DNA of 9,626 nt from a virus (Duplodnaviria > Heunggongvirae > Uroviricota > Caudoviricetes), in the IMG/VR virus record IMGVR_UViG_3300014749_000041; one strand, written 5' to 3'. A program made the position numbers and the translations under genes. The notes beneath the pieces are model-generated. The model was given only the letters and a program-made list of their open reading frames with translations. It did not search any database and was not told where the DNA came from. Below, one piece after another: positions 1 to 9,626 of this stretch (positions within the stretch are counted from its first letter, which is position 1; each line of letters starts with the position of its first letter).

Positions 1-487
1 CAGCGGTAACTTTTATCGGCTCTGGTTGTTCTGAATCTTCAGCGGTATCTACATTTTGCGGTAAGCCCGTGTATGTGCCATTTTTTCGGGCAAAATATTC
101 TTCTTTTGTGATTTCAGTGGCGCCAGCAGCCAGTGCCTTATCCAGACCAGAGAGTTTGTTTGCGCGACCGTATTTTTCTCCGTCCTTATCTGCGAAGAGG
201 AAATAGAACGGCCCCTCACGCTCTACAGATGGTTCAGCTTCCGGCGCGGTTTCATTTTTTGGGATATCAGATACCTCAGTTTCCACTGCATCAGTTTGTG
301 TTTCTGATGACTGGAGAACATCAACAGTGCCCAGGTCTGTTTCTTCATTCTCAAACACGCCCTTTGTCGTCAGGTATTCGCAGATATATTTGTTCAGTGC
401 TACGGGATCTTTGTGAATGTCGATCGGACGCTCACGGACAAGGCCAAAAATAGTTTGGCGGGCGTAGCGAAGGGCATCAGGCTGTTT
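1..487 (-). CDS. YdfE-like prophage protein, C-terminal continuation (partial, runs off window start)
   Basis: Minus-strand frame of about 162 codons with no stop and no Met from 487 down to position 1 (…KQPDALRYARQTIFGLVRERPIDIHKDPVALNKYICEYL…EPIKVTA), acidic and protein-like. It lies directly beyond the 10-N gap from the ydfE-like N-terminal ORF. Frame relation across the gap is unresolvable because gap length is unknown. Confidence 0.5.
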
Positions 488-1367
488 GCNNNNNNNNNNA
501 ACTGATGCATGCGCGGTCGTTGTCGATAACTTCTTTTTTTGCCCAGCGATGGATGCTGCCGTCAATGTTTCCGGCATCCACATCACTAGGCCAGAGAGCG
601 TAGGCCAGTTCGTCATCCAGTGTTTTCCATGTCTGCTTGTATTCGCGATGAATGGCAGCAATGACCGGGCTGATTTTTCCTGTTGAATTTTCAGTGTACT
701 GTTGATTGGCTCTGGCGCGGGCGAGATCAACAACAGACGTGTATTTTCCGGTTTCCTTGCGTTCACCTTCGCGACGTTTTTTCCAGATGCGCATCTCTGC
801 CTGAATTTCGGGCCATTTGGCACCAGGCTTACATTTATGCTTAACCCACCCGATGGCATGCAGCTTAAGCTCCGGATACATGGCGTTAACTTCTGGCATT
901 TTCATCAACGCTTCAACGATATGTCCGTCGAATGTTGCCATGTCTTCCTGCAACAATTCCTGCGCGCTAATCACCATATCAACGGTGATGTTTTCACATG
1001 TGTCGAACTTAACCATGACAGCGTTCTGTACTTCAGGGGCCAGCTTGTCAAAAGTGACGTTCATCGGATCGGATTCAGTCTCAACCGGGACAAAAGAAGC
1101 AGACTCCTCATCCCAGCGGTTTTCCTGCATATATTCAGCATCCCATGAATCGAGGGCAGGGCGGGGTATGCCAGGTTTATCCTCGCAGACAATAAATTTA
1201 TAAGCGCAGTCCTGAGCAGCCGGATAATGTTCCAGGAATTGCCAGTGAAATTTTGCTCGAGCACGGCGTTCGTCGCCAGCTTCAATGGCTGTGGCTACAG
1301 CCACAGCGCCTTCTTCCCTTGTTGCCAGTTCGTCAGGAATAGCGGCGCAAATAAAGACTTTACTCAT
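477..1367 (-). CDS. ydfE: YdfE-like prophage protein, N-terminal portion (function unknown)
   Basis: ATG at 1365-1367 (reverse complement) preceded by GAGG Shine-Dalgarno; product starts MSKVFICAAIPDELATREEGAVAVA…, matching my recollection of K-12 YdfE and its position after ydfD. As written the frame crosses N-run 490-499 and stops at 477-479; the true end is uncertain. Confidence 0.6.
   Translation of the reverse strand: MSKVFICAAIPDELATREEGAVAVATAIEAGDERRARAKFHWQFLEHYPAAQDCAYKFIVCEDKPGIPRPALDSWDAEYMQENRWDEESASFVPVETESDPMNVTFDKLAPEVQNAVMVKFDTCENITVDMVISAQELLQEDMATFDGHIVEALMKMPEVNAMYPELKLHAIGWVKHKCKPGAKWPEIQAEMRIWKKRREGERKETGKYTSVVDLARARANQQYTENSTGKISPVIAAIHREYKQTWKTLDDELAYALWPSDVDAGNIDGSIHRWAKKEVIDNDRACISXXXXQTA
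490..499. other. Run of 10 N (assembly/scaffold gap of unknown true length) inside the ydfE-like gene
   Basis: Literal N characters in the sequence; coding frames on the two sides are offset by one base. Confidence 0.9.
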
Positions 1368-1459
1368 TTGTTTTAACCTCATGACAGATTTAAGGATGAA
1401 CAAATCCCTGCCATTGCTGGCATATAAGAATGAAACCGGATATTTATTACGGAACTGTT

Positions 1460-1651
1460 TTAAAGACCTGCCGGGATTTCGATATTATCCTGGTGAATAA
1501 CTTTATCGACCGGGTAACAGTTACCGGGAATTTTCTGTTCGGTTGCTGCAGTCATACACTCCTGCATTGTCCTGTGAACACTGACTGCAATATCAACTGG
1601 CTCTCCGGAAACAAGAAAAACTGTCAGAACAAGCACAAATGCTGAATTCAT
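1460..1651 (-). CDS. ydfD: YdfD, small prophage lysis-associated protein (63 aa)
   Basis: 63-aa ORF MNSAFVLVLTVFLVSGEPVDIAVSVHRTMQECMTAATEQKIPGNCYPVDKVIHQDNIEIPAGL with hydrophobic N-terminus; its ATG overlaps the dicB stop (ATGA); length and order match K-12 Qin ydfD as recalled. Confidence 0.75.
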   Translation of the reverse strand: MNSAFVLVLTVFLVSGEPVDIAVSVHRTMQECMTAATEQKIPGNCYPVDKVIHQDNIEIPAGL

Positions 1652-1836
1652 TGTGCACATCCTTTTGGCATCAGACGTAAACGAGCCAGCATTGAAACAA
1701 TGCATATTTTATTTAATAGCTCCCGTTCTTGTTTTCTCTTGTTAATGGCATCTTCAGTAAATACAGGGTTACTGATAGTGACACCAATTTCAAAACAACC
1801 TTCAGACGTATTAACGTTTGGTAATAACGTTTTCAT
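1648..1836 (-). CDS. dicB: DicB, cell-division inhibitor (MinC-dependent), 62 aa
   Basis: 62-aa ORF MKTLLPNVNTSEGCFEIGVTISNPVFTEDAINKRKQERELLNKICIVSMLARLRLMPKGCAQ matches recalled DicB; lies downstream of dicF in the same operon. The 97-aa upstream extension in the ORF track was not used. Confidence 0.85.
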   Translation of the reverse strand: MKTLLPNVNTSEGCFEIGVTISNPVFTEDAINKRKQERELLNKICIVSMLARLRLMPKGCAQ

Positions 1837-2010
1837 TATCGCGTCCTCAACAATGAATTTTGTGATGCAGTGCCTGGTGCCTCCAGGTGACGTTAACCAG
1901 TTAACAATTAACGCCGGATACAGAGAATCCACCCATAACACTGTTTTTGGTTTTAACTGTTCCGCGTGCGCTCAGCCGCATTCACCACATCACAAAATTC
2001 ACTTTAAAAA

Positions 2011-2063
2011 GGGCGGCAGAGCAGTCACGGAGTAAAACTGATACCGCCAAACGTCACCAGAAA
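2011..2063 (-). ncRNA. dicF: DicF small regulatory RNA (ftsZ-targeting, Hfq-dependent sRNA)
   Basis: Reverse complement of 2011-2063 reads TTTCTGGTGACGTTTGGCGGTATCAGTTTTACTCCGTGACTGCTCTGCCGCCC, the 53-nt DicF sequence as I recall it, followed on the transcript by a U-run (TTTTTAAAGT). Sits between ydfC and dicB as in K-12. Confidence 0.8.
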
Positions 2064-2404
2064 ATTGATAACAGAGGGCGTTGCAGCGGGGTTGTCACTT
2101 AAGCGTATGGTCAACCTGACAACCCGGTGTCCTCAACGGGGGAAGGAATAACCCCGCCATACTTACCGCCGCGCCATTTCGCGGGTTGCCACAACCGGAA
2201 GCGCACGGTCGACGAAAATTTAACGACAGGCTATCTATGAACCAGCTACCTCGCCGTGCGCTTTCGCGTTATGGTCTGACTTTTCAGGGAAATATCCTTT
2301 CAGTAAACTGTCAGTGCCGGATGCTCACCCGTGTCCGGCGCACGCACTCCACCTCACCCGTGGAGAACTCCTTAATTACCAACCTTAGCTTCGTTGGTTA
2401 GCTA

Positions 2405-2623
2405 TTAACGCGGGTATGTAATCATTCTGGCAATGCTTAATGCCGCTGCTTTTTCCAGATTGGTGATATCCTGCTCCAGAGCGGACAGATTTTCAGCCTG
2501 CTTAGCCCTGGCTTCATTAGCCCATTTCAGATCCTGCGCTGCATTAATTTTCTGGCGCATCCACTCATAAAGTTCATCATCGGTATAGTCTGGCGCGATG
2601 ATGACGGGTTCTCGTTTCTGCAT
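2405..2623 (-). CDS. ydfC: YdfC, small prophage protein (72 aa)
   Basis: 72-aa ORF MQKREPVIIAPDYTDDELYEWMRQKINAAQDLKWANEARAKQAENLSALEQDITNLEKAAALSIARMITYPR; GAGGAA Shine-Dalgarno 5 nt upstream of the ATG; third gene of the ydfABC cluster. Confidence 0.8.
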   Translation of the reverse strand: MQKREPVIIAPDYTDDELYEWMRQKINAAQDLKWANEARAKQAENLSALEQDITNLEKAAALSIARMITYPR

Positions 2624-2652
2624 ACTGATTCCTCGCGGTGCTGTTTCGCTTA

Positions 2653-2781
2653 TCAGCCGTTAGATTTTGCCGAACTGGAAAGCGCCTGTTTAAACTCACT
2701 GAAGCTGAGAGCTTCTTCGCCTTCGGCAAGGCCTTCGAAGTATTCTTCGTAAGCCTTTTCCATGATTGTGTCAAAATCCAT
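2653..2781 (-). CDS. ydfB: YdfB, small prophage protein (42 aa)
   Basis: 42-aa ORF MDFDTIMEKAYEEYFEGLAEGEEALSFSEFKQALSSSAKSNG starting 1 nt after the ydfA stop. An in-frame upstream ATG at 2823 would give 56 aa but overlaps ydfA, so the short form is preferred. Confidence 0.65.
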   Translation of the reverse strand: MDFDTIMEKAYEEYFEGLAEGEEALSFSEFKQALSSSAKSNG

Positions 2782-2782
2782 A

Positions 2783-2938
2783 TCACTCACCTGAGTTTCT
2801 TTCCAGCCAGCGACGGGCACCATTTTCGGTTTTAAACGTTTTGCTTTTGGTATACGTCATTGCGGTGAACGTGCCGTCCTGGTTTGGAAACACGCCGTAC
2901 ACCAGAGATTCGTTGTTGCCAAGATCGATAGTATCCAT
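2783..2938 (-). CDS. ydfA: YdfA, small prophage protein (51 aa)
   Basis: 51-aa ORF MDTIDLGNNESLVYGVFPNQDGTFTAMTYTKSKTFKTENGARRWLERNSGE with GAGGT Shine-Dalgarno 4 nt upstream; first gene downstream of dicA in the same orientation. The longer 77-aa start at 3016 was rejected. Confidence 0.7.
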   Translation of the reverse strand: MDTIDLGNNESLVYGVFPNQDGTFTAMTYTKSKTFKTENGARRWLERNSGE

Positions 2939-3015
2939 GCTGACCTCATTTCCCCTTAACGCTGGGGTAGCGGAACTGTTTGCTGAGAACACCGTGCGGT
3001 GTGTTGATGCAAACA

Positions 3016-3072
3016 AGATTAGCCATGACTAACATATCGGTCAAGTGATTTTGTATGCTATAGCTAACATAA
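3016..3072 (-). promoter_or_regulatory. Candidate promoter/operator of the ydfABC-dicF-dicB operon (dicB promoter, DicA-repressed)
   Basis: On the minus strand: -35 TTGACC (plus 3039-3044), 17-nt spacer, -10 TAATCT (plus 3016-3021). The spacer contains ATGACTAACA (3025-3034), identical to a 10-mer in the dicA-dicC operator palindrome; a related GCTATAGCTAACATAA sits at 3057-3072. Confidence 0.3.
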
Positions 3073-3082
3073 TTGATGTGGT

Positions 3083-3113
3083 AAAAGATAACTCATTGAT
3101 GATGTTATCTTTT
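3083..3113 (-). terminator. AT-rich hairpin overlapping the dicA stop codon (possible weak terminator or binding site)
   Basis: Inverted repeat AAAAGATAAC (3083-3092) / GTTATCTTTT (3104-3113) with 11-nt loop, followed on the dicA transcript by a short U-run. The stem is AU-rich, so termination efficiency is doubtful. Confidence 0.2.
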
Positions 3114-3512
3114 ATTTGTCCGCTGACGGGCTTTTAGTAATTCTTCAAAGAGTTTATTGAAGTTTTTTACTCGAGCTCGCATTTCGGCGAGCTGGGTATC
3201 CTGTTCTGATTCTGGCAGTGCATTAAACAGCTCAAGGAGCTCTAGTTCTTTGGGGGATAAGGCAACTGGCTTCTCAACAGGTGGTGTTGGTTGCTTGTCT
3301 TCATCGCCAAATAGAATCCATGTTGGTGAGCATTGCAATACTTTGCTGAGGGCAAAAAGGTTCTTCCCTGTAGGTTCACTATCACCCCGTTCCCATTGTG
3401 ATACAGACACATGGGAGATTTTCAGGGCTTTAGCAAGAGACCTTTGGGTGTGTTTGAGGTTTTTCCGACGATACCTGATGCGTTCGCCGATAGTTAAATT
3501 TTTTGTTTCCAT
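3105..3512 (-). CDS. dicA: DicA, HTH (XRE/cI-like) repressor of the dic division-inhibition operon
   Basis: 135-aa ORF METKNLTIGERIRYRRKNLKHTQRSLAKALKISHVSVSQWERGDSEPTGKNLFALSKVLQCSPTWILFGDEDK…; classic HTH_XRE signature (QxxLAxxLxxSxxxVSQWERG); divergent from dicC. Confidence 0.9.
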   Translation of the reverse strand: METKNLTIGERIRYRRKNLKHTQRSLAKALKISHVSVSQWERGDSEPTGKNLFALSKVLQCSPTWILFGDEDKQPTPPVEKPVALSPKELELLELFNALPESEQDTQLAEMRARVKNFNKLFEELLKARQRTNKR

Positions 3513-3595
3513 AGTTAGCTAATGCTAAATCGTATTGACTATGTTTTTGTTAACATCTATCTTGTTAGTTATGACTAACAATAAAGGTGTTTTAA
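3513..3595. promoter_or_regulatory. dicA-dicC divergent promoter/operator region
   Basis: 83-bp intergenic region with perfect palindrome TGTTAGT-TATG-ACTAACA (3563-3580), self-complementary TTAGCTAA (3515-3522) and TGTTAACA (3548-3555). Candidate dicC promoter: -35 TTGACT 3535-3540, -10 TATCTT 3558-3563; AAAGGTG Shine-Dalgarno before dicC ATG. Confidence 0.5.
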
Positions 3596-3826
3596 ATGCT
3601 TAAAACTGACGCTCTTTTGTATTTCGGTTCAAAAACAAAACTTGCACAAGCAGCAGGTATTCGTTTGGCTTCGCTTTATAGCTGGAAAGGGGATTTAGTT
3701 CCCGAAGGTCGCGCGATGCGTCTACAGGAGGCATCTGGCGGGGAGCTTCAGTATGATCCCAAAGTTTATGATGAATATCGTAAGACGAAGCGGGCGGGGC
3801 GTTTGAACAATGAAAATCACTCCTGA
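3596..3826 (+). CDS. dicC: DicC, Cro-like small regulator
   Basis: 76-aa ORF MLKTDALLYFGSKTKLAQAAGIRLASLYSWKGDLVPEGRAMRLQEASGGELQYDPKVYDEYRKTKRAGRLNNENHS, divergent from dicA; matches recalled DicC length and sequence. Confidence 0.85.
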   Translation: MLKTDALLYFGSKTKLAQAAGIRLASLYSWKGDLVPEGRAMRLQEASGGELQYDPKVYDEYRKTKRAGRLNNENHS

Positions 3827-4331
3827 ACAGGCTCGTGAGGCTCTGGATGCCTGGATATGTCGACCAGGAATGACACAGGAGCAGGCGACGATATTAATCA
3901 CTGAAGCATTCTGGGCTTTGAAAGAGCGCCCGAACATCGATGTTCAGCGTGTCACATATGAAGGTGGCGCGATTGATCAGCGAGCGCTTGGCGTTAATCG
4001 AGTGAAGATATTCGAACGCTGGAAGGCTATCGACACCAGGGATAAGCGTGAAAAGTTCACGGCGCTAGTGCCTGCAATTATGGAGGCTATCCGGATTAAT
4101 GATTTCAGGTTGTATCGTGAAATTACTGACGGAAAAAGCATCACGTGCATGATCGCCGGGTTAAACAAAGAATATGGCGATGTGGTGGAGTCCGGACTGC
4201 TTTTTGCTGATCCTGCCGTAGTGGATCGTGAAACTGACGAACTTATAGAAAAAGCAATTGCTTTCAAACTTGCGTATCGACAGCAATACCAACAAAAAGC
4301 TGGATGGAATTATGAGCCTTCTTTTTGCTGA
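3810..4331 (+). CDS. YdaT-family (CII-position) prophage regulatory protein, 173 aa
   Basis: ATG at 3810 overlaps the dicC 3' end by 17 nt. It occupies the cII position after the cro-like gene and loosely resembles Rac YdaT as I recall it (…WKAIDTRDKREKFTALVPAIMEAIR…). Family assignment is from memory and position only. Confidence 0.6.
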   Translation: MKITPEQAREALDAWICRPGMTQEQATILITEAFWALKERPNIDVQRVTYEGGAIDQRALGVNRVKIFERWKAIDTRDKREKFTALVPAIMEAIRINDFRLYREITDGKSITCMIAGLNKEYGDVVESGLLFADPAVVDRETDELIEKAIAFKLAYRQQYQQKAGWNYEPSFC

Positions 4332-5277
4332 ACGCCCACTGGTTATAAACACGCAGCTGGCAATGAAAATTGGCTTAAACGAAGCCATTGTTTTGCAACA
4401 ACTGCACTACTGGTTGAGAGATACCAACTCCGGCATGGAATGTGATGGTGTTCGCTGGATTTACAACACAACGGAACAATGGCTGGAACAGTTCCCATTC
4501 TGGTCAGAGTCAACGTTAAAGCGCGCGTTTGCAAGTCTGAAAACGCTGGGGCTTTTGCGTTGTGAAAAGCTCAATAAATCAAAGCGCGATATGACCAATT
4601 TCTACACGATCAACTATGGGAGCGAGCTTTTAGATGGTGGCAAATTGAGCGAATCCATCGGTTCAAAATGCGCCGCTCCATCAGGTCAAAATGACACGAT
4701 GGAAGAGGTCAAAATGAAACGCTCCATTGGTTCAAAACGACCCAATGTCATCGGGTCAAAATGGCCTGATGATCTTACAGAGAATACAACAGAGATTACT
4801 ACAGAGAATAAAAACACTTTTCGTCCGGAAGCTTCGCAACCGGACCCGCAGACGACTGAACAGGATTTTTTAACCCGGAACTCCGACGCGGTTGTGTTTA
4901 GTGCGAAAAAACGCCAGTGGGGTAGCAGGGAGGATTTGGCGTGTGCGCAGTGGATCTGGGGGCGGATCGTGGGTCTCTACGAACAGGCAGCCAGTGATGA
5001 TGGCGAGATCATGCGACCAAAAGAGCCTAACTGGACTGCCTGGGCCAATGACGTGCGCACAATGCGGATGCTGGATGGCAGAAGCCACAGACAAATTTGC
5101 GAAATGTTTGGTCGGGTTCAGCGAGATCCATTCTGGGTAAAAAACATCATGAGCCCGTCAAAGCTCCGCGAAAAATGGGACGAACTGGTCATCCGCCTGG
5201 GACGTTCACCTGTACAGCGTTGTGTTAATCATATTTCTGAACCGGATACAGAAATTCCGCCTGGTTTCAGAGGATAA
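4312..5277 (+). CDS. Phage replication initiator (O-like) with DnaT-like C-terminal domain; contains the origin iterons
   Basis: ATG at 4312 overlaps the preceding stop by 20 nt; the TTG at 4258 in the ORF track was not used. C-terminus …VNHISEPDTEIPPGFRG resembles the E. coli DnaT C-terminus (…VSEPDSQIPPGFRG) as recalled. The mid-gene linker is encoded by a direct-repeat array. Confidence 0.75.
   Translation: MSLLFAERPLVINTQLAMKIGLNEAIVLQQLHYWLRDTNSGMECDGVRWIYNTTEQWLEQFPFWSESTLKRAFASLKTLGLLRCEKLNKSKRDMTNFYTINYGSELLDGGKLSESIGSKCAAPSGQNDTMEEVKMKRSIGSKRPNVIGSKWPDDLTENTTEITTENKNTFRPEASQPDPQTTEQDFLTRNSDAVVFSAKKRQWGSREDLACAQWIWGRIVGLYEQAASDDGEIMRPKEPNWTAWANDVRTMRMLDGRSHRQICEMFGRVQRDPFWVKNIMSPSKLREKWDELVIRLGRSPVQRCVNHISEPDTEIPPGFRG
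4655..4765 (+). repeat. Iteron array (five direct repeats of about 11 bp, 22-24 bp spacing) - candidate replication origin
   Basis: Cores GGTTCAAAATG (4660-4670), GGTCAAAATGA (4684-4694), GGTCAAAATGA (4707-4717), GGTTCAAAACG (4729-4739), GGGTCAAAATG (4753-4763); spacing is close to two helical turns. Located inside the initiator gene as in ori-lambda. Confidence 0.65.
4777..4812 (+). repeat. Three tandem A-rich 12-mers next to the iterons (candidate DNA-unwinding element)
   Basis: ACAGAGAATACA (4777-4788), ACAGAGATTACT (4789-4800), ACAGAGAATAAA (4801-4812), immediately 3' of the iteron array. Confidence 0.5.
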
Positions 5278-5317
5278 GTGTTGATTTCAGGTCATGAGGT
5301 AATTTTAAGGGGGACTT

Positions 5318-5740
5318 GTGGCAAAAGTTTTTACACAAGAAGAGCGGGAAAAAATTAAATGGCAGGTGGTGGAACTCGTGCGCCAGAGCGGCCGTGAGAC
5401 GTTACGGCAACTGGAAGCTAAAACAGGTGCGACTAGATATCTGATGAGCGTTCTTGCCAGAGAGCGGGTAGCCAGTGGCGATGTATACAACTCCGGCTAC
5501 GGGTTATTCCCCTCTGAACAGGCGCGTAAGGACTGGCAAAACGCCCGCAAAAAACTCTCGAGGGCAAAGGTGAAGAAACCTGCTGTGGTTGATCCGGACC
5601 TTATCTGGTCATCACCTGACGGAGAAATACGTCGCTACGACAGTCGCCTAAACATAATCTGTCGCGAGTGCCGGAAGAGCGAAGTTATGCAGCGCATACT
5701 GGCTTTCTATCAGGGTAATTTTCAGGACGTGGCGCAGTGA
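5318..5740 (+). CDS. Ren-like protein (lambda Ren family), 140 aa
   Basis: GTG start at 5318 with AAGGGGG Shine-Dalgarno 4 nt upstream. C-terminal …ICRECRKSEVMQRILAFYQG resembles lambda Ren (…KECRQSAAMKRVLAVYGV…) as recalled; it follows the replication gene as ren follows O/P in lambda. Confidence 0.6.
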   Translation: MAKVFTQEEREKIKWQVVELVRQSGRETLRQLEAKTGATRYLMSVLARERVASGDVYNSGYGLFPSEQARKDWQNARKKLSRAKVKKPAVVDPDLIWSSPDGEIRRYDSRLNIICRECRKSEVMQRILAFYQGNFQDVAQ

Positions 5741-6093
5741 GTGCACCGGCAACCATTCTTGATATGTGCTGTGGCAGCCGCATGTTCTGGTTCGATAAGT
5801 CTGACGAACGGGCGATATTCAGCGATATCAGAAAAGAAGGATACACATTACGCAATGGGAGACGCTTGATTATCAGCCCTGACATTATCGCAGATTTTCG
5901 TGCATTATCATTTGCAGACGCATCTTTTTCGATGGTTGTATTAGACCCTCCGCATCTTGAGAGTGTTGGTGATAACGCCTGGATGGGAAAGAAATATGGA
6001 CGGCTGAATAAAGATGCCTGGCGTGATGATTCGCGACAGAGATTTAAAGAAGCCTTTCGGGTGTTGAGGCCGCACGGCGTTCTGATTTTTTAA
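5737..6093 (+). CDS. SAM-dependent amino-methyltransferase (DPPH motif), probably C-terminally truncated
   Basis: GTG start overlaps the upstream stop (GTGA). Motif I-like ILDMCCGSRMF, acidic beta-2 IFSDI, motif IV VVLDPPH and beta-5-like RVLRPHGVLIF are present. The ORF stops at TAA 6094-6096 but the same frame continues WNETQIPVSQILALTDRKPVICQRTGKKR. Confidence 0.55.
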   Translation: MSAPATILDMCCGSRMFWFDKSDERAIFSDIRKEGYTLRNGRRLIISPDIIADFRALSFADASFSMVVLDPPHLESVGDNAWMGKKYGRLNKDAWRDDSRQRFKEAFRVLRPHGVLIF

Positions 6094-6515
6094 TGGAATG
6101 AAACGCAAATACCGGTAAGCCAGATTCTGGCACTGACAGACAGAAAACCTGTTATCTGTCAACGAACAGGGAAAAAACGATAAAACCCACTGGATTATTT
6201 TTATGAAAGAGGCATCCAGTGAGTAGATTCGTAAGGCTACAGATACGTATATCTGAATAATTAAATTCAGTTCTGTAAATAAAATTTAATCCTTAACCGG
6301 ATGGATTTCTGCACCCTCAGAACATCAGGAGGCCGCCCGAAAGGGCGGTAGTGAAATGCGAAAGTTCAAAATTATTATTGAAACGGGAATAGCTGGTGGA
6401 GATTTTGAGGATGTATTCGAAGTGGACGATGACGCAACACCTGAGGAAATTCATGACGGAGCATAAGAAATTTTCTTTAACTACTGCAATTACTCATACC
6501 ACGAAATAAAAGACG

Positions 6516-6707
6516 ATGAGGAAGAACAAAGTGGCTGATTTTTGTTCAGCTAAATATAACATCAGTTTTGAAGAGCGGGATGAACTATTAATGGACTATG
6601 GTGAGTTACGCGGTGGAAGTGCTGCTGATGTCGAATCCTAGCGTGATGACTATGAAGCGGGAAAAACTCCGGTCGAAGCATATTGTGATGAGTGGGGCGA
6701 TGAATGA
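6516..6707 (+). pseudogene. Small ORF interrupted by an in-frame amber codon (TAG 6639-6641)
   Basis: MRKNKVADFCSAKYNISFEERDELLMDYGELRGGSAADVES-TAG-RDDYEAGKTPVEAYCDEWGDE-TGA; protein-like on both sides of the stop, weak ribosome-binding site. Confidence 0.25.
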
Positions 6708-6990
6708 GCGAGATTAATTATCAGGAAGGGCATGAAACGGCGGGGCAAGCAAAACCAGTGGCATGGCGATATCGCTACGTGAAAAAAGGCGTTACGGACT
6801 TTCAGGGGAAGTAGTGGTCTGGTGACTGGAAATATGTACCGAAAAAAGAGGATTGTAACGACAGGCCGAACTATCAAATTCAGGCCTTATTCACTGCCTC
6901 ACCAGTCCCAGTTACATCAGAAGAACTGGTTAAAGCTGTGCACTTTTATGAACAACTAAAACGCGAAAATCCACCAACATCCGGCAACTA
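6704..6990 (+). pseudogene. ORF of about 93 codons interrupted by an in-frame amber codon (TAG 6812-6814)
   Basis: MSEINYQEGHETAGQAKPVAWRYRYVKKGVTDFQGK-TAG-WSGDWKYVPKKEDCNDRPNYQIQALFTASPVPVTSEELVKAVHFYEQLKRENPPTSGN-TAG. The downstream 56 codons have no start codon of their own; GGGG SD-like element 7 nt upstream of the ATG. Confidence 0.3.
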
Positions 6991-7245
6991 GATTAATGGA
7001 TTAACTATGTCGGTTAAACGACCAGCCAACTGAAAAAGCGGAAACCTGATTACAGGTTGCCAGATAAGGCAATGAGCTACCTGGCGCGGAACGGACTGAT
7101 AAGTATGGGGAATGTTTTACGATGAACCTTTAGACTAAAGAGTTTGTAACGCTATGTAAGTGATTTTTTCTGGTTTAGATATTTATATGTCCGGCCAAAT
7201 TGAGGTGTGTTTAAATGTAATTGCACATTGATTGTAGGAGGAATA

Positions 7246-7425
7246 ATGAAAAACGCATTGCAGTTTTTGTTTGTTGCGTTCTGGTTGTTCGCATCATGTA
7301 TGCCCATCATCTTCACAGCAAGGTATATGGAAAAAGTTGATGTTTTGATATTAATATTTGGATATATAAATGCCCTTTTTTTAGGGGTGTTCATGGCGGT
7401 CATGTGCATTGAATACTGGCGGTAA
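7246..7425 (+). CDS. Small hydrophobic protein, two predicted transmembrane helices (59 aa), function unknown
   Basis: Consensus AGGAGG Shine-Dalgarno (7236-7241) 4 nt before the ATG; MKNALQFLFVAFWLFASCMPIIFTARYMEKVDVLILIFGYINALFLGVFMAVMCIEYWR has two hydrophobic segments; AT-rich codon usage unlike neighbours. Confidence 0.5.
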   Translation: MKNALQFLFVAFWLFASCMPIIFTARYMEKVDVLILIFGYINALFLGVFMAVMCIEYWR

Positions 7426-7480
7426 ATACAGCGAACTCCATTGGTTTAGTTGGATATTTACTGTGCTGGACAAAAACGGT

Positions 7481-7508
7481 TTGCGGGGAAATCTTAGTTA
7501 AGTAGAAT
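7481..7508 (+). promoter_or_regulatory. Candidate hok mRNA promoter
   Basis: -35 TTGCGG (7481-7486), 16-nt spacer, -10 TAGAAT (7503-7508). The implied start lies just before GGTGCTTGAGGCTATCTGCCTC, which resembles the 5' end of plasmid R1 hok mRNA (GGCGCUUGAGGCUUUCUGCCUC) as recalled. Confidence 0.3.
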
Positions 7509-7683
7509 GACTGCGGGTGCTTGAGGCTATCTGCCTCGGGCATGGACACCAACGGCAGATAGAGAAAAGCCCCAGTTAACATTACGCGTCCTGCAAGACG
7601 CTTAACATTAATCTGAGGCCAATTTCATGCTAGACACATGTAGGTTAGCCTCTTACGTGCCGAAAGGCAAGGAGAAGCAGGCT

Positions 7684-7725
7684 ATGAAGCAGCAAAAGGC
7701 GATGTTAATCGCCCTGATCGTCATC
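7684..7725 (+). CDS. hokD: Hok-family toxin (HokD/Gef-like), 5' fragment only - cut after codon 14 by the N-gap
   Basis: AAGGAG Shine-Dalgarno then ATG; MKQQKAMLIALIVI matches the HokD (RelF) N-terminus as recalled. The upstream leader resembles the hok/sok leader (GGTTAGCCTCTTAC…AAGGAGAAGCAGGCT ATG). The ORF is interrupted by N-run 7726-7735. Confidence 0.7.
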
Positions 7726-7735
7726 NNNNNNNNNN
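7726..7735. other. Run of 10 N (assembly/scaffold gap) inside the hok ORF
   Basis: Literal N characters; the 15-mer GGAGAAGCAGGCTAT occurs on both sides (7671-7685 and 7738-7752). Confidence 0.9.
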
Positions 7736-7752
7736 ACGGAGAAGCAGGCTAT

Positions 7753-9490
7753 TGTTAACACCAAGCTGTAATGTCCCCTTTGAACCATTCTAAAATGTCC
7801 CCAGACAATTCTCTGGGGGATTTTTCATGATCAAAGAGACTGTTACGATGAGTCATAAGGAACTCCACCGACTTCAGATTATTCAGGAACAAGCTGCGGC
7901 ACGCATTGGCATTTCTATTCGGCAGGTTAAACGTCTGGTGCAACGGTATAGAAATGAAGGGCCTTCTGGTCTGGTTTCCCACCGACGTGGAAAGCGTCCT
8001 AATAATTCCTTTTCTACTGAATTCAGAGCAACAGTAATTTCACTCCTCAAAGGCCGTTACGCTGATTTTGGACCTACGTTTGCGTGCGAAAAATTGCGCG
8101 AGATACACGGTTTATCTTTATCCGTTGAAACTCTCAGAAAGTGGATGATAGAAGAGGGGTTATGGCGTGAACGCCGTCGTAAAATTGCCCGTATATATCA
8201 ACGCCGCATGCGACGACCATCTTACGGTGAACTGATCCAGATTGATGGCTCACCTCATGACTGGTTTGAAAATCGAGGCCCCAGATGTACACTGATCGTT
8301 TTCATTGATGATGCCACCAGTGCGTTGATGGCGTTGCGTTTTGTGCCTGCTGAAACAACCCGGGCTTACATGGAAACCCTCCGGGGTTACCTTAATGATC
8401 ATGGCGTACCGCTCGCTCTCTACTCTGATAGACACAGTATATTCAGGGTAAATAACCCAGAGCGGGAAGGTGAGCTGACCCAGTTCACTCGTGCGATAAA
8501 GACACTGGGCATCGAGCCAATCCATGCCAACAGCCCGCAGGCAAAAGGGCGGGTAGAGCGCGCCAATCAGACACTACAGGACAGGCTGGTCAAAGAAATG
8601 CGGCTTCAGAATATCAGTGATATTGAAACAGCAAATGCATGGTTGCCGACCTTTATTGAAGCCTATAACAACCGGTTCGCTACGTCGCCTCGTACTACTG
8701 ATAATGCTCATCTTGATGTGCACCATTCTGAAGAGGAACTGGGTTATATCTTCAGCCTACAGGCGAAGCGCGTTCTGTCTAAAAATCTCACTTTCCAGTA
8801 CAAAAGCAGTGCGTTTCAGGTACGCAGTGAGGGCCGGGGATATCGACTTAGGCATTCGGTTGTTACTGTATGCGAGAACTTTGACGGTGAAATTAACGTT
8901 CTGTATGACGGGAAAGCGCTGGGCTGGGAAAAGTATGTTGATGGCCCGGAGCCTATACCACTGGATGATGAAAAGAGTGTCCATGAACGAGTGGATAATG
9001 CCCGTATTGATTTACGCTCAAAATACTATGTTAAACCTAAAGCTGACCATCCCTGGCTTACGCGCCGAACGCAAAGTCATCAGCAAGTTAAGCCCCCGAA
9101 GTTACCTAAAAAGAAGCCTGATCCCGATAAAAAAGATTGAAACCAAGATCGATTCGGTTGAGTGCATATCCATTCATAGGGTAGATTCTTAAGTCGCGTT
9201 TCTGGTGTTCATTTTCGGGTGGTTTGTTACTTGTTTTACCGGGGATATGCCAGAAACGCGCTGAGTCAGTCTGGGCGGTGCGCGTAATGAGGCGTTATGG
9301 TAAATAGCCTATGCTAATGTCCGCTAAGAGCAAGAAGCGGAAGTTGGCAGTTTTGTGGACTGTCCCCACAAAAGTGACTACAGAAATAGTTGCAATTCAT
9401 AATTGATCATGGGTTGTCAGTTAAACTCGTGGCGATTTAAATAGACTAATTGGGAGTGCGTCCATTACTTATATCTTGTAATGTTAACTA
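7753..9490 (+). mobile_element. Insertion-sequence-like element carrying the transposase (boundaries not resolved)
   Basis: Similarity to the hok region stops at 7752 and the next bases begin TGTTAACA…. A matching terminal inverted repeat was not found; only a weak TGTTAAC-like match near 9482-9489. Both ends are approximate and the element may extend beyond the window. Confidence 0.25.
7827..9140 (+). CDS. DDE transposase with integrase-core (rve-type) catalytic domain and N-terminal HTH; IS481/ISNCY-like
   Basis: 437-aa ORF with GGGGGA SD-like element 5 nt upstream. N-terminal HTH-like IGISIRQVKRLVQRY; catalytic candidates QIDGS, LYSDRHSIF and GRVERANQTLQ with D-(about 65)-D-(about 38)-E spacing; basic C-terminal tail. 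Family assignment is by motif only. Confidence 0.85.
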   Translation: MIKETVTMSHKELHRLQIIQEQAAARIGISIRQVKRLVQRYRNEGPSGLVSHRRGKRPNNSFSTEFRATVISLLKGRYADFGPTFACEKLREIHGLSLSVETLRKWMIEEGLWRERRRKIARIYQRRMRRPSYGELIQIDGSPHDWFENRGPRCTLIVFIDDATSALMALRFVPAETTRAYMETLRGYLNDHGVPLALYSDRHSIFRVNNPEREGELTQFTRAIKTLGIEPIHANSPQAKGRVERANQTLQDRLVKEMRLQNISDIETANAWLPTFIEAYNNRFATSPRTTDNAHLDVHHSEEELGYIFSLQAKRVLSKNLTFQYKSSAFQVRSEGRGYRLRHSVVTVCENFDGEINVLYDGKALGWEKYVDGPEPIPLDDEKSVHERVDNARIDLRSKYYVKPKADHPWLTRRTQSHQQVKPPKLPKKKPDPDKKD

Positions 9491-9626
9491 TCAGAAATGA
9501 TACAAAGATAATATGTCTTTAAAGAAAAGGCTGATGGCGAAAAGTGGCCCGATGAGGGAGCCTGTTCAGGATTCTGTGTAAATACCTTTTCTCAGAAGTG
9601 GCCGGCCCAGGGGGCACCGAAACCCG

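What the first reader, a model, noticed from the sequence alone, without database searches (positions are those of the whole stretch)
7481..7752. hok/sok-type leader at a hokD-like locus with no relBE, and the toxin ORF broken at codon 14
The Hok N-terminus MKQQKAMLIALIVI is HokD/Gef-like, but it is preceded by a hok-mRNA-style leader and an in-frame upstream ATG (7627) in the mok position. I found no relB or relE in any frame upstream, whereas K-12 hokD is recalled as the third gene of relBEF. This may be a non-rearranged hok locus. The ORF is cut by the N-gap and a 15-bp repeat (GGAGAAGCAGGCTAT) brackets the gap, with a transposase gene immediately after. That is consistent with IS-associated inactivation, as at other chromosomal hok loci, or with an assembly collapse.
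Basis: partly seen in the sequence, partly recalled or inferred. Interest (0 to 1): 0.6.

Follow-up and report, generated by a model that had tools for sequence, protein, structure and literature searches.

The report
hokD leader split by relBE-carrying transposon
The window holds the complete control region of a prophage hok/sok toxin gene; the apparent break at codon 14 is an assembly join, and the real interruption is a relBE-carrying transposon inserted at the hok start codon, the event that most likely created the classic E. coli relB-relE-hokD operon.

Summary
This includes a full hok mRNA leader (Rfam, 114 bits), an in-frame mok-type ATG at 7627, 14 HokD codons, a 10-N run, the 15-mer twice, a transposase gene, and no relBE in the window.

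Codon 14 is not a biological breakpoint. Left of the Ns the sequence matches the uninterrupted hokD locus. Right of the Ns it matches, base for base, the junction found in 784 of 5426 complete E. coli genomes. There the leader ends at GGAGAAGCAGGCTAT (hok SD to the AT of ATG) and an IS1202-family element begins. These are two mutually exclusive continuations of one leader, so the Ns most likely mark an assembly join.

In complete genomes the same 15-mer flanks a 3.3-kb transposon. It has TGT-terminated inverted repeats (20/27), a transposase, and relB-relE next to the right end, and hokD follows it. So relBE probably lies a few kb beyond the window. MG1655 has lost the leader and the left end.

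In 169 loci, the element's left end abuts the SD/start codon of at least 15 different hok leaders, with 15-16-bp duplications. I found no paper describing this targeting. The hok locus is ordinary; the transposon looks like a new variant.

The parts
7481..7508 (+). Putative hok promoter (-35 TTGCGG 7481-7486, 16-nt spacer, -10 TAGAAT 7503-7508), placing the start near G7515
   Evidence: Read from the sequence. The position fits the first base of the Rfam model. The simple consensus scan did not reach its threshold here, so this is inference.
7515..7689 (+). hok mRNA 5' leader (5' fold-back partner, mok translation start, Sok target, hok SD)
   Evidence: Rfam RF01794 over the full model, 114.3 bits, E 4.5e-26. 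In the uninterrupted relative L001 the same leader pairs with the 3' end of the mRNA.
7627..7725 (+). mok-type reading frame: ATG 7627 (SD GAGG 7615-7618), in frame with and running into hok
   Evidence: Translation. The ATG and the frame are kept in other hok leaders (read from the flanks). In K-12-type loci the frame ends 6 codons into the transposon (read).
7552..7636 (-). Putative Sok antisense RNA: single-stranded 5' tail over the mok start, long hairpin, U-run
   Evidence: Fold -30.5 kcal/mol, z -3.98. Putative promoter on the minus strand: -35 TTGCCT = rc(7665-7670), 17-nt spacer, -10 TAACCT = rc(7642-7647), read from the sequence and kept in other leaders. Not detected by the consensus scan.
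7671..7685 (+). 15-mer GGAGAAGCAGGCTAT, copy 1: hok SD through AT of the start codon, the transposon's target site
   Evidence: Single copy in the empty site L001; duplicated at both ends of the transposon in L004.
7684..7725 (+). hokD codons 1-14 (uninterrupted-type continuation of the leader)
   Evidence: Window 7200-7725 is 100% identical to L001. Window 7670-7725 is also 100% identical to the hokD start downstream of relE in MG1655.
7726..7735 (.). Run of 10 N: join between two assembled pieces
   Evidence: The sequences on the two sides are alternative continuations of the same leader.
7736..7752 (+). Last 17 nt of a K-12-type leader (ac + 15-mer copy 2)
   Evidence: Identical to L003/L004 9000-9016, including the C that distinguishes them from the uninterrupted type.
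7753..7779 (+). Left terminal inverted repeat of the IS1202-family transposon (TGTTAACACCAAGCTGTAATGTCCCCT)
   Evidence: 20/27 identical to the reverse complement of the right end in L004. Both ends start with TGT, and the match is found only in that register. The same end occurs in 173 loci from many hosts.
7827..9140 (+). Transposase ORF, 437 aa (its last 49 codons are annotated as ydfW in K-12)
   Evidence: NCBIfam NF033594 ISNCY transposase, 456 bits. HTH and rve_3 domains. 92% identical to 446-aa plasmid copies but lacking 9 aa in the N-terminal HTH region. YdfW equals its C-terminus.
9141..9558 (+). Interior of the transposon downstream of the transposase, as in Qin of other strains
   Evidence: 100% identical to L004 and to MG1655 apart from a 25-bp repeat polymorphism.
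9559..9626 (.). End of an IS1414 (IS256 family) copy inserted inside the transposon; the window ends within it
   Evidence: Same insertion point as in L003, where IS1414 is annotated at that position.

Best explanation
**What the region is.** Window 7481-7725 is the regulatory half of a hokD type I toxin-antitoxin locus of a Qin-like lambdoid prophage. It contains a promoter, a leader with the mok translation start, a Sok antisense gene and the hok SD/ATG.

**Ancestral state.** In the ancestral arrangement this leader runs straight into the 51-codon hokD and its 3' fold-back element, and there is no relBE nearby.

**K-12-lineage state.** In the lineage that includes K-12, a transposon of the IS1202 family (ISEsa1-like) inserted exactly at the hok start. 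It duplicated the 15 bp GGAGAAGCAGGCTAT. The element has terminal TGT inverted repeats, a transposase, a variable middle part, and relB-relE about 60 bp from its right end.

**Inferred consequences.**
- The leader with mok and sok is left as an orphan upstream of the element.
- hokD keeps an SD and an ATG because of the duplication.
- hokD now sits behind relE and is co-transcribed with relBE, which is the known relBEF operon.

**What the window shows.** It holds this interrupted locus: leader, 15-mer, left inverted repeat, transposase, then a later IS1414. In addition, the left piece runs 56 nt (7670-7725) into an uninterrupted-type hokD start before the 10 Ns. The two sides of the Ns are alternative branches of one repeat. 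The likeliest source of the extra branch is a second hok locus in the same genome that the assembler or scaffolder joined here. Codon 14 is therefore not a biological breakpoint.

**Shown versus inferred.**
- Shown: identity of the parts, empty and filled sites, inverted repeats, duplications, relBE as cargo, and recurrence at many hok loci.
- Inferred: the cause of the N join, Sok expression, and how the transposase picks its target.
For: **Leader and hok features.**
- Rfam hit over the full model and the in-frame mok ORF.
- Sok-like hairpin, z -3.98.
- 5'/3' fold-back pairing in the full L001 mRNA, z -6.4.

**Empty versus filled site.**
- L001 has one copy of the 15-mer between leader and CDS.
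- L004 has leader-15-mer-IRL ... IRR-15-mer-hokD, 3299 bp apart.
- The inverted repeats are 20/27 identical, start with TGT and match in one register only.

**The window against these two types.**
- Right of the Ns it is identical to the filled-site left junction. Left of the Ns it is identical to the empty site.
- The best matches to window 1-7725 are complete genomes in which 7670-7725 lies 3.3 kb beyond 7685.
- The filled junction is in 784 of 5426 genomes and the continuous junction in 4034 of 5426. The median is 2 places matching this 87-nt leader/hok query per genome.

**Evidence that the element moves, with relBE as cargo.**
- Complete elements with their own 15-16-bp duplications occur at other hok loci: L010/L021 15/15, L141 14/15, L165 and L162 16 bp, L011.
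- They also occur at non-hok sites (L008, L017).
- RelB/RelE lie next to the right end wherever I checked complete elements, except the transposase-less L017.

**Context in K-12 and the literature.**
- MG1655 lacks window 4090-8955, so it has lost the leader and the left end.
- relBE and relF/hokD are co-transcribed (PMC3598666).
- IS1202-family members have TGT ends and a subgroup makes 15-17-bp repeats (bioRxiv 10.1101/2022.12.17.520857).
Against: **The join is not resolved.**
- Base 7670 is A on the left piece and C on the right piece. The left piece therefore cannot be a simple jump across the 15-mer within one K-12-type locus, and a second template is needed. I could not show that this genome has one.
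- No complete genome among the best 25 carries the window's left arm fused directly to hokD. Only one genome (H1) has this exact leader in uninterrupted form.

**Limits on the functional claims.**
- The Sok and hok promoters did not pass the simple consensus scan.
- The transposase of the Qin copy lacks 9 aa, and RefSeq marks it as a pseudogene. The element here is probably immobile.
- The transposition was not observed. It is reconstructed from comparisons.
Confidence: 0.8

Rival explanations
1. The IS really inserted into hokD at about codon 14, and the 15-mer pair is its target duplication.
For: A transposase gene follows the gap, and the 15-mer occurs on both sides of it.
Against: Both copies lie to the left of the IS, whereas a target duplication flanks an element. 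The IS end is preceded by the 15-mer plus 'ac', exactly as in 784 genomes where the insertion is at the start codon and the second copy lies 3.3 kb away. The 41 nt between copy 1 and the Ns are plain hokD sequence.
Confidence: 0.03
2. The Qin-like prophage of this strain really has an uninterrupted hokD. The piece right of the Ns belongs to another hok locus elsewhere in the genome and was placed here by reference-guided scaffolding.
For: The left piece has A at 7670 and continues into hokD exactly as in L001. The right piece carries only 17 nt of leader, so its origin cannot be fixed. Several hok loci per genome are usual.
Against: Window 5491-7685 differs from K-12-type Qin (L003) at only 2 bases. 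All the best full-length matches are interrupted loci. The uninterrupted form of this exact leader occurs in 1 of 5426 genomes. The right piece is the Qin-type copy of the element (100% identical to L004).
Confidence: 0.15
3. The culture or genome is mixed: most molecules carry the transposon, some have lost it, and both junctions were assembled.
For: Both junction types are present in one assembly. Tandem copies and recombinant elements show that the region is recombinationally active (L160, L084).
Against: Loss by recombination between the two 15-mers would keep the C at 7670 rather than the A seen. The Qin transposase looks defective.
Confidence: 0.05
4. The association of the element with hok start sites reflects spread by homologous recombination between hok loci, or a single old insertion, and not target choice by the transposase.
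For: hok leaders and coding regions are similar enough to recombine, and one hybrid element (L084) shows such exchange.
Against: The duplicated 15-16-mers differ between loci and match on both sides of each element. The flanking leaders differ much more than the element ends do. One insertion is in the opposite orientation in the same 15-bp window (L020). One used a target half made of an ISKpn28 end. Non-hok insertions also have 15-bp duplications.
Confidence: 0.1

Closest known systems
hok/sok of plasmid R1 and the chromosomal hok loci of E. coli (type I toxin-antitoxin)
   Same: Leader matching the Rfam model over its full length, an upstream mok frame with its own SD, a Sok-like antisense hairpin over the mok start, a Hok/Gef toxin, and 5'/3' fold-back in the full mRNA of the uninterrupted relative.
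   Different: It is prophage-borne. The leader hairpin carries about 18 extra nt relative to the model. In this lineage the leader is cut off from the toxin gene. Activity was not tested.
relBEF (relB-relE-hokD) operon of E. coli K-12, Qin prophage
   Same: Same prophage, same hokD, and the same element interior (window 8956-9558 is 100% identical to MG1655). The arrangement leader-transposon(relBE)-hokD in L003/L004 and 784 genomes contains the K-12 operon.
   Different: MG1655 has lost the hok leader, the left inverted repeat and most of the transposase (deletion of window 4090-8955). The origin of the operon therefore cannot be read from K-12. The window keeps these parts but ends before relBE.
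ISEsa1 and the IS1202 family (formerly ISNCY)
   Same: Transposase family. RefSeq labels one copy 'IS1202-like element ISEsa1 family'. Ends start with TGT, the inverted repeats are imperfect and about 25 bp, and the long target repeats of 15-16 bp match the ISTde1 subgroup.
   Different: ISEsa1 is listed as 1609 bp with no detectable target duplication (PMC10132070). The elements here are 2.3-7.7 kb, carry relBE, and have clear duplications. I did not compare directly with the ISfinder ISEsa1 sequence.
dif/pdif-targeting IS of the ISAba32/ISAjo2 subgroup (IS1202 family)
   Same: Same family. Insertion at a fixed short distance from a specific sequence, recurring in many replicons.
   Different: The target is the hok SD/start region and not a XerC/D site. 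The duplication is 15-16 bp and not 3-6 bp. Both orientations occur. The recognition element is not defined.
IS elements next to chromosomal hok loci of K-12 (IS150, IS186), and hokD's 'major rearrangement' (Pedersen and Gerdes 1999, recalled from memory)
   Same: A hok locus separated from its control by a mobile element.
   Different: A different IS family, insertion exactly at the start codon, and a second toxin-antitoxin pair delivered as cargo. Ramisetty and Sudhakari 2019 (PMC6379469) already state that relBE integrated into hokD, without describing a transposon.
Toxin-antitoxin cargo in Tn3-family transposons (recalled from memory)
   Same: A type II toxin-antitoxin pair carried inside a transposon close to one end.
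   Different: A different transposon family and no known hok targeting.

Membership tests
[quoted passage not shown] | Hok/Gef family toxin ORF | tested here: met
   The window holds only codons 1-14, identical to HokD. The full 51-aa ORF of the 100%-identical relative L001 matches Pfam PF01848 (82.9 bits, cutoff 22).
[quoted passage not shown] | Conserved structured hok mRNA leader | tested here: met
   Rfam RF01794, 114.3 bits against a gathering score of 59, full model 1-157.
[quoted passage not shown] | Upstream overlapping mok reading frame with its own SD | tested here: met
   ATG 7627, GAGG 7615-7618, open and in frame into hok. The same holds in other leaders.
[quoted passage not shown] | Sok antisense RNA gene opposite the mok start | tested here: inconclusive
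   A hairpin plus U-run on the minus strand (z -3.98) and a conserved TTGCCT-17-TAACCT read by eye. The consensus promoter scan found nothing. There are no expression data.
[quoted passage not shown] | 3' fold-back element pairing with the 5' end | tested here: met
   Not in the window, because the 3' part is missing. In L001 the minimum-energy fold pairs the 5' end with the 3' end (z -6.4).
[quoted passage not shown] | Post-segregational killing or toxicity | not testable with these tools
   Needs an experiment.
IS1202 family (ISNCY) transposable element | Single DDE transposase of 400-500 aa of the family | tested here: met
   437 aa. NCBIfam NF033594, 456 bits against a cutoff of 250. Size range as given.
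IS1202 family (ISNCY) transposable element | Imperfect terminal inverted repeats beginning 5'-TGT | tested here: met
   20/27 identical, TGT at both ends, one register only. Seen in L004, L008, L010, L011 and L017. The right end lies outside the window.
IS1202 family (ISNCY) transposable element | Target duplication of a subgroup-typical length (5-6, 15-17 or 27-28 bp) | tested here: met
   15-16 bp at the Qin site and at other sites: hok loci of L010/L021, L141, L165 and L162, and non-hok sites in L008 and L017 (13/15 each). Exceptions are L011 (13 or 14/15) and L055 (6 bp).
IS1202 family (ISNCY) transposable element | Placement in a subgroup by transposase phylogeny or indels | not tested
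   No tree was built. The only pointer is the RefSeq label 'ISEsa1 family'.
relBE type II toxin-antitoxin | relB and relE genes present | tested here: not met
   None in the window at E<=10. They are present inside the element in related loci and are expected beyond the window's right end.

The most novel reading that the evidence does not exclude
ISEsa1-like IS1202-family transposons may be 'hok hunters'. They would insert at a fixed position in the SD/start codon of hok genes, in either orientation, with a 15-16-bp duplication. They carry relBE as built-in cargo, so each insertion disconnects hok from mok/Sok control and wires it behind relBE. On this reading the textbook E. coli relBE(F) locus is the decayed remnant of one such insertion. 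This would also correct the published description of ISEsa1 as an IS without target duplication. Both the claim being right and its being undescribed elsewhere are uncertain, because ISfinder/TnCentral and Ramisetty and Santhosh 2016 could not be read.
Probability: 0.55. Interest if true: 0.65.

Novelty: new variant of a known kind. Interest (0 to 1): 0.5.

Why it matters
**For this finding.** It removes a false lead. There is no toxin gene broken at codon 14, and the hok leader without relBE is an ordinary, widely annotated prophage feature.

**Beyond it.**
- relBE of E. coli K-12 is the founding example of its toxin-antitoxin family and is usually treated as a chromosomal or prophage gene pair. 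The comparisons here indicate it is cargo of a transposon.
- The odd third gene of the operon, hokD/relF, is explained by the transposon's choice of the hok start site.
- A transposon that seeks out one toxin-antitoxin system while carrying another suggests competition or hitch-hiking between addiction modules.
- It adds a second kind of sequence-specific targeting to the IS1202 family.
- In about 14% of complete E. coli genomes an orphan mok/sok leader lies unannotated upstream of the element.

Tried and rejected
- **mok frame.** I first miscounted the hok ATG as 7685 and noted that ATG 7627 was out of frame. Translation showed it is in frame, and I corrected this in the notebook.
- **K-12 gene order.** I first misremembered it and thought the window contradicted it. 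The MG1655 annotation shows the same order.
- **A jump across the 15-mer.** I considered that the left piece is a chimera formed across the 15-mer within one K-12-type locus. I rejected this because 7670 is A and not C.
- **k-mer size.** I tried to derive the assembler's k from the 56-nt overhang. It fits k of about 55 only to within one base, and the right piece lacks the expected overlap, so this stays unresolved.
- **Right end on plasmids.** The plasmid copies L005-L007 are cut by other IS (ISCfr4, ISEsa2, an IS903-like end). They gave left junctions only.
- **Promoter scan.** The consensus scan found nothing in 7420-7830.
- **Literature.** One search (sokD/mokD/hokD as word starts) returned only unrelated papers. 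Ramisetty and Santhosh 2016 is not held.
- **Target motif.** The test for a hok-like motif upstream of non-hok targets was only weakly positive (p about 0.025). I do not rely on it.
- **Co-occurrence of both junctions.** I could not check whether single complete genomes hold both junction types, because results cannot be filtered by accession.

Full report
**1. What is in the window**

The window is part of a Qin-like lambdoid prophage of E. coli. DicF lies at 2011-2062 on the minus strand. The gene order follows annotated relatives: exonuclease, ydfD, dicB, dicF, ydfCBA, dicA, dicC, replication and nin-type genes, then hokD.

- 7515-7689 (+) matches the Rfam hok-leader model RF01794 end to end (114.3 bits, E 4.5e-26).
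- The hok ATG is at 7684. Codons 1-14 read MKQQKAMLIALIVI, as in HokD.
- The upstream ATG at 7627 is in frame and has GAGG 9 nt before it. This gives the 19-codon mok-type extension.
- The Ns occupy 7726-7735.
- GGAGAAGCAGGCTAT occurs at 7671-7685 and 7738-7752, which no shuffle reproduces.
- A 437-aa ISNCY/IS1202-family transposase ORF follows at 7827-9140.
- RelB and RelE are absent from all six frames.

**2. Two arrangements in complete genomes**

*(A) Uninterrupted.* In L001 and L002 the leader runs into the 51-codon hokD. rem follows in L001, along with the nin/Q region, and no relBE lies within 9 kb in either locus. Window 7200-7725 is 100% identical to L001. The full L001 mRNA folds with its 5' end paired to its 3' end and ends in a terminator (z -6.4). 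A continuous leader-hok junction occurs in 4034 of 5426 genomes.

*(B) K-12 type.* In L003 and L004 the leader ends ...ggcaC-GGAGAAGCAGGCTAT. It is followed by TGTTAACACC..., the transposase (its 3' end is annotated ydfW), flxA, ydfV, relB and relE. Then comes ...GCGTTGACA-GGAGAAGCAGGCTAT-GAAGCAG..., that is hokD, and then rem. This junction occurs in 784 of 5426 genomes.

Aligning the empty site with the two filled-site junctions shows a single 15-mer in A and one copy at each end of a 3299-bp insert in B.

**3. The insert is a transposon**

- Its ends are imperfect inverted repeats, 20/27 identical. Both begin with TGT, and the match exists only in that register. These are the hallmarks described for the IS1202 family, one subgroup of which makes 15-17-bp repeats.
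- Scans for the left end in species-representative genomes, viral contigs and metagenomes, together with the loci fetched earlier, gave 173 loci with the left end. Of these, 169 had usable left flanks.
- Complete elements of 1.9-7.7 kb share the same right end. Each has its own flanking repeat:

| Site | Flanking repeat |
|---|---|
| Enterobacter plasmid hok (L010/L021) | 15/15 |
| L141 | 14/15 |
| L165, L162 | 16 bp |
| Kluyvera hok locus (L011) | 13 bp, or 14/15 |
| Non-hok sites (L008, L017) | 13/15 each |

- relB-relE sit about 60 bp inside the right end wherever I checked complete elements. The exception is L017, which also lacks a transposase. relBE therefore travels with the element.

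**4. Target choice**

The 169 left flanks fall into 39 classes. About 25 of them, covering at least 15 clearly different hok leaders, end at the hok SD...AT(G), within 1-2 nt.
- Rfam finds full hok leaders abutting the element in L007, L009, L011, L015, L019 and L023.
- L020 has the element in the opposite orientation, in the same 15-bp window, next to a Hok ORF.
- L160 has two elements in tandem that share one repeat.
- Where ISKpn28 had already inserted after GGAG, the element used GGAGATGTATGGGTCC as its target. That target is half hok SD and half ISKpn28 end. This points to recognition at or upstream of GGAG.
- Fourteen classes are non-hok. They resemble the hok upstream motif only weakly (p about 0.025).

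Spread by homologous recombination alone does not explain locus-specific matching repeats, the inverted insertion, or the non-hok sites. It does occur, though: L084 is a hybrid.

**5. Consequences (inference)**

- The duplication leaves hokD with an SD and an ATG, but without its leader, mok and Sok target. It sits directly behind relE.
- relBE and relF/hokD are known to be co-transcribed (PMC3598666).
- The orphan leader keeps a truncated mok frame that ends 6 codons into the transposon (read).
- It also keeps a Sok-like gene with a 5' tail over the mok start, a long hairpin and a U-run.
- The A-to-C change at 7670 in most K-12-type loci falls on the first base of the putative Sok -35 box, TTGCCT.
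- MG1655 itself has deleted window 4090-8955, so it has no leader, no left inverted repeat and only the transposase tail (ydfW). This is probably why the origin of relBEF is not obvious from K-12.

**6. The N-run**

- The right piece (7736 onwards) is the type B junction, including the C.
- The left piece is identical to the type B leader up to 7669. It then has A and 55 more bases of hokD, which is the type A continuation.
- A single molecule cannot have both continuations 10 bp apart.
- The best full-length matches to window 1-7725 are type B genomes in which 7670-7725 lies 3.3 kb further on.
- The A at 7670 rules out a simple jump across the 15-mer inside one type B locus.
- The likeliest cause is a second, uninterrupted hok locus in the same genome. 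Two places matching this 87-nt leader/hok query per genome is the median. Its last stretch of leader would be identical, so the assembly graph branches at 7670 and the two branches were joined with 10 Ns.
- The window also ends inside IS1414, which is another repeat boundary.
- I could not prove this. The alternatives are listed as rivals.

**7. Literature**

- hok enrichment in prophages is documented (bioRxiv 10.1101/2025.08.07.668861).
- That relBE integrated into hokD has been stated (PMC6379469).
- From memory, Pedersen and Gerdes (1999) attributed hokD's lack of control elements to a major rearrangement.
- The two IS1202-family surveys list ISEsa1 as 1609 bp without a detectable duplication. 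They describe targeting only of dif-like sites by another subgroup.
- Searches for ISEsa1, relBEF/hokD with IS terms, and relBE with transposase terms found no description of a relBE-carrying IS1202-family transposon or of hok targeting.
- The library is incomplete, so this is absence of evidence only.

**8. Verdict**

The hok locus itself is ordinary. The worthwhile result is the transposon that explains it.

Noticed in passing
window 2011-2062 (-) and 1804-2013 (-): Full-length DicF sRNA (76.7 bits). A sub-threshold STnc100 match (34 bits against a gathering score of 47) lies directly downstream of it on the same strand.
   Followed up: no
window 9559-9626: The window ends inside an IS1414 copy inserted at the same point as in L003. 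The last 30 nt or so differ from the L003 copy at several bases. This could be contig-end noise or another IS variant.
   Followed up: partly
window ~9474 / L004 10737-10761: L004 and many genomes carry a 25-bp tandem duplication (TCTTGTAATGTTAACTATCAGAAAT) inside the transposon that the window lacks.
   Followed up: no
window 7827-9140: The Qin copy of the transposase lacks 9 aa (SLNRHITQE) in the N-terminal HTH region that the 446-aa plasmid copies have. RefSeq marks it as an incomplete pseudogene and separately annotates its last 49 codons as ydfW.
   Followed up: partly
window 7670: A on the left piece and in uninterrupted loci, but C in most transposon-bearing loci. The base is the first position of the putative Sok -35 box (TTGCCT becomes GTGCCT).
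   Followed up: partly
L006 ~213, L118, L139, L090, L174: ISKpn28 (IS481 family; end TGTATGGGTCC...) is repeatedly inserted right after GGAG(A/T) of hok SD copies. One such site is the right-hand repeat of the Qin transposon. It is a second IS with the same hot spot.
   Followed up: partly
L160 (flank class 36): Right inverted repeat, GGAGAAAAAGGCTAT, then left inverted repeat: two elements in tandem sharing one 15-bp repeat.
   Followed up: no
L024 6628-6741 (-): An Rfam isrO match (58.8 bits against a gathering score of 42) overlaps the left inverted repeat of the element at a non-hok site. The isrO model may include part of this IS end.
   Followed up: no
L006 4360-4882: A more distant relative of the transposase (79% aa identity) on a K. 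pneumoniae plasmid is followed by a convergent RelE/ParE-family toxin-antitoxin pair in place of relBE.
   Followed up: no
L055 and L084: L055 is a non-hok insertion with only a 6-bp repeat (CGCCTT). L084 has a left flank from one hok leader and a right repeat of the Qin type, which indicates recombination between elements.
   Followed up: no
window 7207-7425 (+): A 72-aa ORF with hydrophobic stretches lies just upstream of the hok promoter. It has no Pfam or NCBIfam match.
   Followed up: no
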